A DNA stretch of 64,000 nucleotides from Diadema antillarum. Its lineage: Eukaryota. The stretch lies in NCBI RefSeq assembly GCF_040938485.1, contig NW_027272280.1, positions 248,001 through 312,000 of the forward strand, written 5' to 3'. Below, one piece after another: positions 27,862-40,124 of the stretch (positions are counted from its first letter, which is position 1; every line of letters begins with the position of its first letter). A program made the translations under genes and the position numbers. The notes under the pieces were generated by a model that worked only from the letters and a program-made list of their open reading frames with translations, was not told where the DNA came from and ran no database searches.

Positions 27862-28306
27862 TGTTGCGCGTAACGCTTAAAGATGCTGTGATTATTGCGC
27901 CTCGCGTATTTACCTTGCTGTTGAGAATCAGTGCTGACAGAGACAGGAATCCGCGAATGCTTTTTGGTGATTGCTGGCACCGGTACGTTGCTTGTTCCTC
28001 TGTTCTCTGTTCTCTGGTCTCTCGATTCTAGTCTCAATGATTCCCCTTTTATAGCCCCCTTTATTGGATGGGTAGCCCTCCGTTGGTTAGGAACGGGTTG
28101 CCCAAGTTGGGCTTGGGGGGTTGAGATGTACCGTAGGCCGTGCTTATTGTGTGTGTGTGCTGAGTGTGTGTGAGTATTCTATCGTCATGCATCAGCGCAT
28201 TGATAAATGCACCGTGCAGCATAATTGCCGGTCTTGGGCCAGGCATATTATGCCGCACGGGCGAACATATAAACATATATATTCATATATGTTACTTAAT
28301 ACAACA
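27862..28306 (-). mobile_element. Long terminal repeat (3' LTR on the minus strand), 445 bp
   Basis: TGTTG...CAACA termini, GTAC TSD at 27858-27861, and an adjacent minus-strand polypurine tract gggccagggggag (28307-28319). Confidence 0.85.
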
Positions 28307-28386
28307 CTCCCCCTGGCCCTATAGATTGGCAACTATAATTAAATCATCAAAACAAACATTTCAGGCCATTTGCCAATCTCAAAACC

Positions 28387-29500
28387 AACTAGAAATGTCG
28401 CTATGGCGACTGGAATGCCTCCGCCAAAATGCATGATTCTCCTAATAGGTCTATAGTACATGTGGACAATGTGTGATTACATTTTCACAAATTTGGCAAA
28501 ATATTAAAATGACATGTTTGTCACAAATGTATCAAATGTTCACCTTCCTTGACCTATGTTTAATTGGATGAATAGGAGAGCATGTATTTGGGGATTTAAG
28601 AACTTTAACTTCGACTTTGACCCTTTCATAAGTTTACGCACTTGAGTAATTTTCATGGTATGGAGAAAAAGTGCAATTTCTGTATTGAACAGTAAATTGT
28701 TATCATGTTCATCTGGCCTTTGATTCATAAGAGAATCACTGTCAGGCAGAACATACATAAATATGTACTAAGTTTAAAGATAACTTGAGCCACTTCCGAG
28801 ATATGGAGAAAGAAGTAAGTTCAGCACTTTCACTTGATCTTTGACCTTTTGACCTTTGACCTTCTTGGCAAAAAAAAAACCAATCCCAGAGAATCTCTAG
28901 TGGGTTATACATGCATACATCAAGTAACATAAATATAAGGAAAATAGTAACATTTTGAAGTATTGCCCTTGACCTTTGACCCCTGACCTTTGACCCCATG
29001 AAAACCAAATTCCCTAGATAACCACTGACAGTCAGTACATGCACATATACTTTGTTCCATAAAGATACCTTGAACAATTTCCAAGATACAGAGAAAAAAG
29101 TGAAATTTCAATATTTTGCTTGACCTTTGACCTTTTGACCTCATGACCCCAAACTTTCACCGGAGAATCTTAATTTGGTAATACATGTATACACTACGTT
29201 TCAAGAAAATATCTTCAGGCATTGCATAGATATGGGGGAAATAGTGAAATTTTAAGCATTCGACCTTGACCTTTTGACCTTTGACCTTGAGCACCCAAAA
29301 GTTGATAGGCACAACTTCACCCCCTAATACACATACATGCCAAGTTTCATTAGGATACCTCAAAAGGTTTTGATAGTTACCCTGTCCACAAAATTCATTA
29401 TGGACGGACGGAAGGACGGACGGACGGACGGACGGACGGACGGACGGACAACCCGAAAACATAATGCCTCCGGCATCACTTCGTGGCGGAGGCATAAAAA
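28387..29500 (-). mobile_element. HINE family A copy 2, inserted inside the LTR element
   Basis: Homologous along its length to 11866-13060, with the same termini. Confidence 0.8.
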
Positions 29501-29600
29501 ACCAAAACCAAAAAACCAAAATACCCGGACTTTCAGGAAAACAACCGAAAATTACCTAAATACCATCCCCTCTAATATATACACTACATGTATATACACC

Positions 29601-37111: not shown

Positions 37112-38104
37112 CTATCTTGTGGTGTGCTGCTTGTACTCCACTTCTTTTCCGCTCTCAGTCTCCCTGTAAAACAATCGCGCCGGATATTTGAAGTACACCT
37201 TTCGCTTTGGGTCCTCCTCTTTCAGCTTTCGTTTCAGTGGCAGCAATTTCCTCCTGCTTTCTCGCACTTCTACCGGCAGCATCTCATCGACAAATATCTG
37301 GTGATCCTTTCCGTTGTGCTGAAAAGGCCTCTCCTTCAAATATCTGCGGGCACTGCTGATCACTGTTTGTCTGGTTGTGTATCTACTGAAAGCTACCACA
37401 ACTGGGCGAGGAGGGCCGGGTTTTGGCCTGATGCGGCCTGTGCGATGAGCTCTTTCAATGCTCACTTCACCTTCCATTTGCATATTTGACTTGGCAAATT
37501 CTTTGATCAATTGCTCACACTTCCCAGCGTTTTCAGCACCTTCAGGAAACCCGTAAAACACAGCCGTATTCCTCATCTCTCTCGCAGTGAGGTCAACAAG
37601 ACGCTCTCTCAATTTCATATTCTCCTTTTCTTGCTTGTTTACTTGGTCCTGTAACTGTTTGACATCAAAACGGCACGACTCTTGCTCCTCTTTCAAGTTA
37701 CTGATTTCTTTCTCATTTGTTTCAATCTTACCAAGAGCTGTGTCCAACCTGGATGTGAGATTGGAGTTCATTTCGTCTATCTTGTGGATAAGGGCCGCGA
37801 GTAGTTCATCTGTGGTTGACTTCTCCCCGTCTACTCGTCGTTTTTTCTCAAGCGAGGAGCGTGGAGGTGATTCCGCCGACGCGCCCGGGCTGGTTCCCTC
37901 CATATCTCGGTGAAGTGGTTTCACTACCGTGTGCACTGCCGAGTCAGTTAAGCCGTGTGCATTATCACTGTCACTGTGTTCTTGCGTAGCCTTCTCCGTA
38001 GTAGCGTCGCTAAAATCCATCTTAGGGTCAAAATCCTCCTTTTCCTTGAAATAATGGGAGATTGTAACGACTCCTTGTTCTAAGCTCCTTTTTCTCGATG
38101 TCAT
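37112..38104 (-). CDS. L1-type ORF1p (coiled coil, RRM, CTD), intact 330 aa
   Basis: Heptad region, then RNTAVFYGFPE, IERAHR, PRPVVVAF and YPARL motifs typical of L1 ORF1p. Confidence 0.88.
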   Translation of the reverse strand: MTSRKRSLEQGVVTISHYFKEKEDFDPKMDFSDATTEKATQEHSDSDNAHGLTDSAVHTVVKPLHRDMEGTSPGASAESPPRSSLEKKRRVDGEKSTTDELLAALIHKIDEMNSNLTSRLDTALGKIETNEKEISNLKEEQESCRFDVKQLQDQVNKQEKENMKLRERLVDLTAREMRNTAVFYGFPEGAENAGKCEQLIKEFAKSNMQMEGEVSIERAHRTGRIRPKPGPPRPVVVAFSRYTTRQTVISSARRYLKERPFQHNGKDHQIFVDEMLPVEVRESRRKLLPLKRKLKEEDPKRKVYFKYPARLFYRETESGKEVEYKQHTTR

Positions 38105-38211
38105 TTTGACTTTTCAAACTGTAATAGGCGAAATGAGCTGCAATTTTATTTCCTCCTAATGCCTCCGTAACACTCAGGCACGTCCTAACCGCACAGCGCC
38201 ATCTTGGATTC

Positions 38212-40035
38212 GAATATTGATATTAATGAATTGTTTAGAAAATCTAGAATGGACAGAAGAGCCAGTTACAAATCTTGGTGTTGTTTTGTGTCAGACAGAA
38301 AATGAATTTAATCGTTTGAATTGGTTAGTAAAAATTTAGAAAATTAAGCGAATAATAAGAATGTGGAGGATGAGAAATTTCACGTATTATGGGAAAGTAG
38401 TTATTATTAAATCTTTACTTGTATCTCAGTTGATTTATCTTTCAACTTGTTATAGAATTCCTTAGAAATATTATATGTTAAAGAGTTGAATAAGATATTA
38501 TTTTCATTTTTGTGGAATTCTAAAAGAGATAAAGTTAAAAGAGCGATTGTAATGAACGGTGTTTTACAAGGTGGTTTAGGAATGATTGATTTAGATGCAA
38601 AAATGAAGTCACTTAGGCTTTCTTGGTTGCCGAAATTATTAGATGCTAGTGATAAATCTCAGAAATATGTAAATTTTGGTTAAACAAAATTGGAGGGGTT
38701 TATTTATGCTTACATTATAATCATTCAGCTGCAGATATGATGTTATTGTGTAAAAGATACAAATTACTGTTATTCTATTCTGATCTTGAACTCTTTACAT
38801 GGGCAAAAAAACATCATACATATATTGCAGGTAAATGATATAGCAAATGAAATTATTTGGAATAATACGAACATTAAGTATACGAATGAAGTTTTGTTTA
38901 ATAAAGATCGTGTTGAAAAAGGTATCATTTATGTTAAACAGTTGATAGAAAATGAATCATGGAAAAATCATGAACAAATATATGAAATAATGAATTTGAA
39001 TTCTTTATTAATTTGTTTCAATATGAAAGAATTAAAAAGGCATTGCCACAGGTGTGGTTTGATTATTTGTGTAAAAGGCAATGTACCCGAGATGTTCTGT
39101 TCAATAAAGAATTATTTCAGATAAATACTGGGGATATAATTGAATTGATACCTTTAAAAACAAAACAGTTTTATTCGCTACTGCTGGATGAAAAGAAATC
39201 TGAGTTAAGTGTGATATACAAATTTGTACTTTTGGACAAAAATATTACATACTTCGAGAATTTGATTGGAAGGGTTGTTTGATTTCCAGTTCTAATCTAA
39301 TTATCTAATAATAAAAAAAGCAATAAGTTTTAAGTTATTACATAGAATCTTACCATTTAAAGAAATTTAGTGAAATGAAAAATTATGTCTGACATGATTT
39401 GTACGAAATGCAGCAAAACTGAATCGATTTGGCATGTTATGTTATATTGCCCAGATACAAGTTATATTGGGAAAATATATCAAATTTTATATGCGCTTAT
39501 TTTCATAAAATCACTGTGAATGAGCGAATGATATTAACAGGATTCAATGTAAGACATAAATCTTTGATGATGTTGAATTGATATTAGTTTTTGCCCAATA
39601 TACAATTTTTTTGTTTGTATATAACTTAGCAATCATACAACAAAAGCAACGAAAGTATACGCATTATTGACAGATTTTAGAACAGAGCTCATTATGAATT
39701 TGAAATTTTTGGTTAGAAAAAAGCTACTTGACTTCACGAAAAGGCAACTTTACGAATTAGAGCAGAAGCTGAATCACAAAATTTATATTTGATTGGCCTG
39801 GGATGCAGAAATTAATATGTTGAGGTATATGTCACACTCAGCAAGTATCTTGGATATATTTGAAGTATACTTTCACCAGAGGAATCGAAATTCATGTGAT
39901 GATATAATTTTGACAATTTATTGTTCGTACCCTTATTTTCTACATTCATACATCTTGCTCTCTGTATGTTTTTTGTGAACTTTTCTAGATCTGTAATGAA
40001 ATAAAGTCCATCGAAGGAGGATAAAGAAAAAAAAA
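38212..40035 (+). mobile_element. Outer L1/Tx1-like LINE, right part (post-RT region, 3' UTR, poly(A))
   Basis: Reading resumes across the TSD; contains GKVVIIKSLLVSQLIY, WNSKRDKVKR, QGGLGMIDL and EIIWNN; ends aataaa...A-run at about 40035. Confidence 0.85.
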
Positions 40036-40124
40036 ATAATTGCCGGTTTTGGGCCAGGCATATACACGTGTATGCCGCACAGGCAAACATATAAACATAT
40101 ATCCATGTGTTACTTTATACAACA
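40036..40124 (-). mobile_element. Remnant of the 5' LTR (89 bp)
   Basis: Aligns to 28221-28306 with a few substitutions and indels; ends CAACA followed by the GTAC TSD (40125-40128). Confidence 0.85.

What the first reader, a model, noticed from the sequence alone, without database searches (positions are those of the whole stretch)
27862..40124. LTR retroelement carrying a TatD nuclease in the env/ORF3 position
Seen: TGTTG..CAACA LTRs, a 4-bp GTAC TSD and a polypurine tract define a minus-strand LTR element. The only coding remnant of its interior is an intronless TatD domain (DTHYH, GIH, SEVGFD, HSFSG, ETDSP) behind a Pro/Ala/Glu-rich linker. Once the HINE is removed, it ends about 170 bp before the PPT, where env-like or accessory ORFs sit. 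Known: 4-bp TSDs fit Ty3/gypsy-type integrases, and TatD proteins are metal-dependent 3'-5' exonucleases / AP endonucleases. I know of no described LTR family with TatD cargo, though I cannot search. Inference: a retrotransposon lineage captured a nuclease that could process cDNA ends, repair intermediates or degrade DNA/RNA sensed by the host. This might also account for multicopy intronless TatD-like genes in such genomes.
Basis: partly seen in the sequence, partly recalled or inferred. Interest (0 to 1): 0.85.

Follow-up and report, generated by a model that had tools for sequence, protein, structure and literature searches.

The report
Retrotransposon lineage carrying a TatD nuclease
This is a wrecked copy of a jumping gene from a sea urchin whose extra third gene is a nucleic-acid-cutting enzyme probably taken from the host long ago; relatives occur in other marine invertebrates, so many of their apparent "DNA-repair genes" may really be transposon cargo.

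Summary
The finding is confirmed, with corrections, and extended. The span is a minus-strand LTR element with a GTAC target duplication, a polypurine tract (PPT) and a TatD frame ending 166 bp before the PPT once the HINE is discounted. Only 87 bp of the 5' LTR survive. Gag-pol is gone, replaced by two nested L1/Tx1 LINEs. The TatD frame has a frameshift, a stop and one altered metal ligand.

It is not a one-off retrocopy. The family has 429 clusters at 50% identity (E≤1e-30), with named members in urchins and bivalves. Full-length members are mostly 650–1100 aa: a zinc-finger/helical domain with no structural match, then a group II TatD, with six catalytic residues intact in 111 of 127.

The only other locus with DNA context (L001) shows integrase+PHD, then this ORF, then a PPT|TG motif. 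It lies across a deep split in the tree. The family is monophyletic and sister to two host TATDN2-like proteins.

Best reading: an old Gypsy-type lineage captured TATDN2 as an enzymatic ORF3, most likely a nuclear R-loop/structured-RNA nuclease (inferred, ~0.4). The closest precedent is the DEDDy exonuclease ORF3 of rotifer LTR elements. LTR linkage rests on two loci, and Repbase/Dfam were not checkable.

The parts
27858..27861 (.). Target-site duplication, left copy (GTAC)
   Evidence: chance of a 4-bp match about 0.005
27862..28306 (-). 3' LTR, complete, 445 bp, TG...CA ends, TATA-like box at LTR position 254
28307..28319 (-). Polypurine tract abutting the 3' LTR; same short PPT|TG junction motif as downstream of TatD in L001
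28387..29501 (.).
   Evidence: two other copies at 11857-13074 and 44428-45667, about 83% identity
29601..30459 (-). TatD nuclease domain of ORF3 (group II, HxH), broken by a frameshift near 30211 and a stop at 29934-29936; one metal-site position non-canonical
30460..30640 (-). Remnant of ORF3 upstream of TatD: what aligns to the last helix of the zinc-finger/helical domain, plus Pro/Ala/Glu linker; cut by LINE A
30641..40037 (+). LINE A, 5'-truncated decayed L1/Tx1-type element (endonuclease, RT remnants, poly(A) at about 40026-40037); occupies the place of the lost gag-pol, PBS and most of the 5' LTR
32576..38211 (-). LINE B nested in LINE A, near full length (coiled-coil ORF1; endonuclease, RT, zf-RVT), with an 11-13 bp target duplication
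40038..40124 (-). 5' LTR remnant (first 87 bp)
   Evidence: 73 of 80 identical to the 3' LTR; score 97 vs maximum 29 in 100 shuffles
40125..40128 (.). Target-site duplication, right copy (GTAC)
25846..27861 (+). Older host LINE (APE endonuclease + RT; CR1/L2-like by recall) into which the LTR element inserted; its frame resumes at 40125

Best explanation
WHAT IT IS. A decayed insertion of an old lineage of Gypsy-type LTR retrotransposons of marine invertebrates. These carry a separate third ORF between pol and the PPT/3' LTR. ORF3 (mostly 650-1100 aa) reads: small N-terminal domain, long disordered region often ending in a basic cluster, C2H2-like zinc finger fused to a helical domain, linker, then a group II TatD nuclease. 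The nuclease was probably captured once from a host TATDN2-type gene and kept under selection.

HOW THIS COPY FORMED (read from the sequence). It inserted at GTAC in an older LINE. A HINE then entered the 3' UTR, and LINE A replaced the 5' part. LINE B landed in LINE A, and ORF3 decayed.

HOW IT MOST LIKELY WORKS (inferred, about 0.4 among mechanisms). ORF3 is a nuclear, non-structural helper made in germ cells. The disordered arm and zinc-finger domain bring it to nucleic acid, and the TatD domain removes the RNA strand of R-loops or structured RNA, as host TATDN2 does. This would clear hybrids at transcribed element copies, keeping them transcribable and sparing the germ cell replication stress. 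It is not an envelope protein.

The confidence value refers to the identity (LTR lineage with TatD ORF3), not to the mechanism.
For: SHOWN. (1) Window anatomy. (2) L001: integrase 1241-2932 (Integrase_H2C2, rve, PHD); ORF3 with its own ATG about 110 bp later; zinc-finger/helical hit at E 1.8e-31; TatD ending at 5599. The PPT|TG motif occurs in L001's 11.4 kb only at 5810 and 6210-6212, both downstream of the stop, against 0.015 expected in that 881 bp. (3) The window and L001 meet only at a node holding 136 of 137 family tips (FastTree, 0.883) or 39 of 43 (IQ-TREE, 90/87). (4) The family is one clade (0.938; 97/89) and is sister to two host TATDN2-like proteins to the exclusion of 71 bacterial TatDs (0.988) or 25 of them (100/99). 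(5) Six metal/catalytic positions are intact in 111 of 127 domains at a median 35% identity. (6) 429 clusters at E≤1e-30, several paralogs per urchin species, and clusters of up to 209 members. (7) A 1092-aa member lies on a 3330-bp contig, leaving no room for introns. (8) A basic cluster precedes the zinc finger in 45 of 67 vs 198 of 940 control windows. Only 2 of 71 long members have a marginal hydrophobic stretch.

LITERATURE. TATDN2 degrades the RNA of R-loops, needs its disordered N-terminus to bind them, and uses Glu/Glu/Asp residues that I map by motif spacing to positions conserved here (PMC10711561 passages). It protects primordial germ cells (PMC12709183 abstract).
Against: (1) Only 2 loci gave DNA context, and both are broken. 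The window lacks pol; L001 lacks RT, gag and a second LTR. No intact LTR-gag-pol-TatD-LTR copy was seen. (2) None of 98 long homologs is fused to RT, RNase H or integrase. This fits a separate ORF but gives no independent support. (3) The TATDN2 sister relationship rests on 2 proteins that I judged to be host TATDN2 from recalled motifs and their architecture. No TATDN1/3 sequences were in the tree, and the IQ-TREE bootstrap had not converged. (4) By profile score the best solved structures are bacterial YcfH (E 1e-33), ahead of TATDN1/3 (E about 1e-16), and no TATDN2 chain was among the hits. (5) Some members look domesticated (P0014, P0016: degenerate active site, repeated domain), so not all TatD copies need be mobile. 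(6) No activity, expression or localisation data.
Confidence: 0.85

Rival explanations
1. Same identity, different job: ORF3 is a cDNA quality-control enzyme (AP endonuclease / 3'-5' ssDNA exonuclease) that trims cDNA ends or repairs abasic sites in reverse-transcription or integration intermediates.
For: TATDN1, TATDN3 and E. coli TatD/YcfH/YjjV have AP-endonuclease activity, and TATDN1/3 have 3'-exonuclease activity (PMC10085689 passages). The group II HxH site is intact. A 3'-end-processing role was proposed for rotifer DEDDy ORF3s (PMC5408684).
Against: The closest sampled host relatives are TATDN2-like, and TATDN2 cut RNA but not DNA in R-loops. ORF3 is not part of Pol, so packaging with the cDNA is not evident.
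Confidence: 0.25
2. Same identity, counter-defence job: ORF3 degrades or shields small-RNA/target hybrids or cytosolic cDNA, blunting piRNA silencing or innate nucleic-acid sensing.
For: A long-kept, fast-diverging accessory ORF with a domain of no known fold. Accessory domains of retrotransposons have been discussed as silencing suppressors (PMC6338049 part 1).
Against: No direct evidence. The activity known for the nearest relatives is R-loop clearance.
Confidence: 0.2
3. One-off capture: a host TatD retrocopy or neighbouring gene fragment ended up inside this single LTR copy, or was dragged in by LINE A.
For: The window has no gag-pol, and TatD abuts the LINE A junction. RefSeq names such proteins 'putative deoxyribonuclease TATDN2'.
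Against: L001 shows the same pol-ORF3-PPT order in a distant branch. An AU test rejects grouping the window's subclade with the host TATDN2-like pair (p 0.008). The zinc-finger/helical domain is in 68 of 72 long proteins but not in either host-type protein.
Confidence: 0.05
4. The TatD ORF is cargo of a mixed set of elements, e.g. a Ginger-like DNA transposon in L001 and an LTR element here, rather than of one Gypsy lineage.
For: Ginger1 transposases are Gypsy-integrase-like and can carry a PHD finger (PMC2836005 passages). L001's element ends were not found.
Against: Ginger1 has terminal inverted repeats and CCGG/CCGT target duplications. The window has direct repeats and GTAC. L001 has a PPT-like motif matching the window's, and no Ulp1/OTU domain.
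Confidence: 0.1

Closest known systems
Vesta and Juno LTR retrotransposons of bdelloid rotifers with DEDDy exonuclease ORF3 (PMC5408684, passages read)
   Same: A non-envelope, enzymatic ORF3 downstream of pol that encodes a 3'-5' nuclease with intact catalytic residues; function untested.
   Different: The nuclease is a TatD TIM barrel, not a DnaQ-fold DEDDy. It comes with an upstream zinc-finger/helical domain. The rotifer ORFs are family-specific gains, whereas this family has hundreds of clusters and named members in echinoderms and molluscs.
Host TATDN2 (group II TatD; PMC10085689, PMC10711561, PMC12709183)
   Same: HxH motif, conserved Glu/Glu/Asp, C-terminal TatD behind a long disordered arm; nearest sampled clade in both trees; shared F/Y-C-D-P motif.
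   Different: Multicopy, apparently intronless, carries a zinc-finger/helical domain absent from both host-type proteins, and sits in an LTR element.
Env-bearing Ty3/gypsy errantiviruses (PMC13524379, passages)
   Same: Third ORF between pol and the 3' LTR.
   Different: No transmembrane segment (2 of 71 marginal). That survey found no env-carrying elements in echinoderms.
CopiaMBD and chromoviruses (PMC6673714, passages)
   Same: LTR lineages that captured a host chromatin or nucleic-acid domain. L001's integrase ends in a PHD finger most like PHF8/PHF2/DIDO PHDs.
   Different: Those domains are readers fused to Pol. Here the cargo is an enzyme in its own ORF.
QatD of the bacterial Qat anti-phage system (NCBIfam NF041926; PMC13434339 listing only)
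   Same: A group II TatD co-opted in genetic conflict.
   Different: Bacterial defence operon. Scores are far below the family cut-off (35-59 vs 230 bits).

Membership tests
LTR retrotransposon (remnant) | Direct terminal repeats with TG...CA ends | tested here: met
   One 445-bp LTR plus an 87-bp remnant, 73 of 80 identical
LTR retrotransposon (remnant) | 4-6 bp target-site duplication (range from PMC12440569) | tested here: met
   GTAC on both sides
LTR retrotransposon (remnant) | Polypurine tract next to the 3' LTR | tested here: met
   28307-28319
LTR retrotransposon (remnant) | Primer-binding site after the 5' LTR | not testable with these tools
   Region replaced by LINE A
Autonomous LTR retrotransposon | gag and pol present | tested here: not met
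   No gag/pol-type ORF seen in the span; the RT hits are LINE-type. This copy is therefore filed only as a remnant.
Ty3/Gypsy (Metaviridae) | Integrase last in pol, Gypsy-type H2C2/DDE | tested here: inconclusive
   Met in L001 (best integrase hits are foamy virus and Ty3); not visible in the window copy
Ty3/Gypsy (Metaviridae) | RT phylogeny within Metaviridae | not testable with these tools
   Neither locus retains the element's RT
Errantivirus / env-bearing Gypsy | ORF3 is a membrane glycoprotein | tested here: not met
   TatD domain; 2 of 71 with a marginal 19-residue hydropathy above 1.8
TatD group II (HxH) | N-terminal HxH motif | tested here: met
   124 of 127 and the window (these rows were selected by a D-x-H-x-H/Y pattern); definition from PMC10085689
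TatD group II (HxH) | TIM-barrel fold like YcfH/TATDN3 | tested here: met
   Model of homolog P0035 (pLDDT 87) matches 6l25/1yix at E ≤ 1e-16, TM(target) 0.8
TatD group II (HxH) | Metal-dependent nuclease activity | not testable with these tools
   Residues conserved in 111 of 127; the window copy is broken
Host TATDN2 ortholog | Groups inside the host TATDN2 clade and lacks extra domains | tested here: not met
   Separate sister clade; AU p 0.008; extra zinc-finger/helical domain
Vesta/Juno DEDDy-ORF3 elements | ORF3 of the DEDDy (DnaQ) family | tested here: not met
   Pfam gives TatD_DNase, no DEDDy family
Ginger1 DNA transposon | Terminal inverted repeats and CCGG/CCGT target duplication | tested here: not met
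   Window has direct repeats and GTAC; L001 ends not determined

The most novel reading that the evidence does not exclude
An undescribed, very old, cross-phylum clade of Gypsy elements in marine invertebrates pairs a histone-mark-reading PHD integrase with a captured TATDN2 R-loop nuclease fused to a domain of unmatched fold. These would be retroelements carrying their own R-loop resolvase for the germ line. They would account for most of the multicopy 'TATDN2/tatD' genes annotated in urchin and bivalve genomes, and would have been domesticated at least once as a pseudo-enzyme.
Probability: 0.4. Interest if true: 0.85.

Novelty: new variant of a known kind. Interest (0 to 1): 0.7.

Why it matters
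LTR elements with an enzymatic ORF3 are known from a few rotifer families; I found no report of TatD cargo in 10 library searches. Here the cargo defines a large, old clade with conserved catalytic residues, so it likely has a real role in the retroelement life cycle. Host TATDN2 is a germ-line R-loop nuclease, which gives a concrete test of whether retrotransposons manage R-loops themselves. It also flags an annotation problem: many urchin and bivalve 'TATDN2' or 'uncharacterized' gene models may be transposon ORFs. It adds a confidently folded domain with no structural match in the libraries searched.

Tried and rejected
- Search for pol-TatD fusions. Two 'longer' searches gave 1 and 18 hits from 8000 candidates each, and Pfam on 98 long homologs gave no RT, RNase H or integrase. 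These searches are weak for long proteins. The DNA_primase_lrg hit on P0014 had no passing stretch and was dismissed.
- Other copies of the LTR or TatD in the window: none.
- Cluster-member look-up could not be made because the database was switched off.
- The GTDB scan returned 80 loci: 79 ordinary bacterial TatDs (profile score ≤145) and L001 (381).
- Phage records: 22 weak matches, the 10 listed at 25-31% identity; no close relative.
- Fold searches for the zinc-finger/helical domain: no Foldseek hit at E≤0.001 in PDB or BFVD, and best VIA Z 3.6, rmsd 3.8, 74 aligned. This is inconclusive for novelty of fold. ESM Atlas gave only leads below 0.9.
- My first profile of that domain spilled into TatD; its domain counts were discarded and redone. 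The hydropathy count comes's set of 71.
- No DNA similarity between the window LTR and L001's downstream region beyond chance. L001's LTR could not be delimited, since there are two candidate PPTs and a mariner insertion follows.
- Pfam on the short host-LINE flanks found nothing; their continuity rests on reading frame and a recalled motif.
- A supplement table of echinoderm gag-pol elements had no ORF coordinates and was not used (part 1 of 2). No TatD term or family motif in that paper's 7 supplements. Troyka supplements were unreadable.
- dN/dS was not done (no DNA for close copies).
- Repbase, Dfam, eukaryotic genome assemblies, viral and metagenome contigs stayed unchecked.
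Full report
OBSERVATION. The ends are as described. GTAC sits at 27858-27861 and 40125-40128, with TGTTG at 27862 and CAACA ending at 40124. A 4-bp flank match has about 0.005 chance, and the two GTAC copies occupy the same codon phase of an interrupted LINE RT frame. 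One LTR is complete (27862-28306, 445 bp), with a purine tract at 28307-28319 on the minus strand. The other is an 87-bp remnant: 73 of 80 aligned bases identical, score 97 against at most 29 in 100 shuffles.

Most of the interior is later insertion. It holds a HINE-like repeat (28387-29501; two more copies in the window), a 5'-truncated L1/Tx1-type LINE A (30641-40037) whose poly(A) touches the LTR remnant, and a near-complete LINE B nested in it (32576-38211). No gag or pol of the LTR element is left. The TatD frame (29601-30459, minus) matches Pfam TatD_DNase in two pieces. It has a frameshift near 30211 and a stop at 29934-29936, and ends 166 bp before the PPT once the HINE is discounted. 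One of six metal-site positions is non-canonical.

HOST. The best hit is a Diadema antillarum gene model at 84% identity. It skips the same frameshift, and its first 38 residues match window 41946-42056, so it is probably the same locus rather than an independent copy. The window is therefore inferred to come from a diadematid sea urchin.

FAMILY. A profile of 10 hits found 429 clusters (50% identity) at E≤1e-30; the best 150 were listed. Named members come from D. antillarum (3), D. setosum (2), S. purpuratus (3), Lytechinus, Pinctada and Ruditapes. An 81-member Atlas cluster, commonest phylum Mollusca, matched at TM 0.79/0.93. Long members end in TatD, and none of 98 scanned is fused to RT, RNase H or integrase; two have a zinc knuckle.

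Upstream of the linker lies a C2H2-like finger joined to a helical domain. It is found in 68 of 72 proteins of at least 600 aa, of which 39 were in the training alignment and 29 of the other 33 were new hits. It folds at pLDDT 95 and has no match in PDB, BFVD or VIA (best Z 3.6). The window remnant starts in what aligns to its last helix. Six metal/catalytic positions are all intact in 111 of 127 domains at a median pairwise identity of 35% (30 of 157 proteins lacking the N-terminal motif were left out). A 1092-aa member on a 3330-bp contig is necessarily intronless.

SECOND LOCUS. L001 is an 11.4-kb contig deposited in a Sedimenticola MAG. It carries an NXPE-family gene, a mariner transposase and an integrase, so I infer it is animal DNA. 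On one strand it shows Integrase_H2C2, rve and PHD (1241-2932). An ORF then starts about 110 bp later with the family's N-terminal domain, zinc-finger/helical domain (E 1.8e-31) and TatD (to 5599). The window's PPT|TG junction motif occurs in L001 only at 5810 and 6210-6212, against 0.015 expected in that stretch. L001 is also decayed, with no RT, gag or paired LTR.

TREES. FastTree used 210 domains (137 family, 2 host-type, 71 bacterial; 41 rows lacking the N-terminal motif were dropped). It makes the family one clade (0.938), sister to Patella and Amphibalanus proteins that I take as host TATDN2 from architecture and recalled motifs (0.988). IQ-TREE on 70 rows agrees (97/89 and 100/99; bootstrap not converged). 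The window and L001 meet only at a node holding 136 of 137 or 39 of 43 family rows, so by parsimony the retroelement link is old. An AU test rejects joining the window's subclade with the host-type pair (p 0.008). TATDN1 and TATDN3 were not sampled. By profile score, bacterial YcfH structures rank first among solved structures.

MECHANISM. Shown: position, domain order and conservation. Inferred: function. ORF3 is not Env, since 2 of 71 long members have only marginal hydrophobic windows. A basic cluster precedes the finger in 45 of 67 versus 198 of 940 control windows, suggesting nuclear import. Human TATDN2 removes the RNA strand of R-loops, acts only minimally on plain RNA:DNA duplexes, and needs its disordered N-terminus (PMC10711561). 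Fish tatdn2 protects primordial germ cells from R-loop damage (PMC12709183). I therefore favour a nuclear R-loop/structured-RNA nuclease (about 0.4) over cDNA repair or trimming (0.25; activities in PMC10085689) and counter-silencing (0.2). A simple 'second RNase H' role is weakened by the duplex result.

COMPARISON AND NOVELTY. It works like the rotifer Vesta/Juno elements with a DEDDy exonuclease ORF3 (PMC5408684; PMC5718144) but is not a member. It is a remnant LTR element; Gypsy assignment is inferred from L001 and the 4-bp duplication and is untested by RT.

Ten library searches showed no paper on TatD in LTR elements. Searches listed all 21 and 37 papers holding TatD plus retrotransposon or transposable element; I saw titles and abstract starts, and opened one (PMC6962438, a passing TATDN2 label). 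Most other searches listed only their top 25-40. A 2025 overview of extra LTR-element domains names chromodomain and env only (PMC12440569 Introduction).

Also seen: PMC6338049 (first quarter), PMC6673714, PMC6238403, PMC2836005, PMC13524379 (passages; its supplements searched). Repbase, Dfam and most subscription journals were not searchable, and unread supplements may list such families.

VERDICT. It is a new variant of a known kind, with interest 0.7. The main weakness is that LTR linkage rests on two broken copies.

Noticed in passing
L001:2760-2930: The integrase of the related element ends in a PHD finger whose best structural relatives by sequence are PHF8, PHF2, DIDO and CXXC1 PHDs, which I recall as H3K4me3 readers. 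It may target integration to active chromatin.
   Followed up: partly
proteins P0014 and P0016: Family members with a degenerate TatD active site and 5 or 2 tandem copies of the zinc-finger/helical domain; possible domesticated pseudo-enzyme.
   Followed up: partly
window 41946-42056 and 29622-30645: A RefSeq D. antillarum model (P0002) joins a piece outside the element, in a GC-richer region, to the TatD remnant. Either an annotation artefact or exonisation.
   Followed up: no
window 32576-38211: Near-complete L1/Tx1-type LINE (333-aa ORF1; ORF2 in three pieces) with an 11-13 bp target duplication, nested in another L1/Tx1 LINE.
   Followed up: partly
window 30641 and 40037: LINE A has no visible target duplication and sits where the element's gag-pol and most of the 5' LTR should be: an insertion-associated or later deletion of several kb.
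   Followed up: partly
window 11857-13074, 28387-29501, 44428-45667: Three copies (about 83-85% identical) of a 1.1-1.2 kb non-autonomous repeat with internal tandem units and a tetranucleotide microsatellite.
   Followed up: no
window 21204-21772, 43897-44069, 53672-54615: A second dispersed repeat family with inverted-repeat structure, MITE-like.
   Followed up: no
L001:1-2976 and 7762-10737: A 100% identical duplication of 2976 bp at 7761-bp spacing; recent tandem duplication or assembly artefact. The contig looks like animal DNA inside a bacterial genome bin; protein P0164 from a Sedimenticola MAG is likely the same kind of contamination.
   Followed up: partly
proteins P0127 and P0171: Family members with a CCHC zinc knuckle upstream; P0171 stands for 209 member sequences and has a long branch.
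   Followed up: no
window 4880-6193 (+) and 56194-58317 (-): Host genes: a GH31 glycoside hydrolase exon and CIA30/NDUFAF1-like exons.
   Followed up: no
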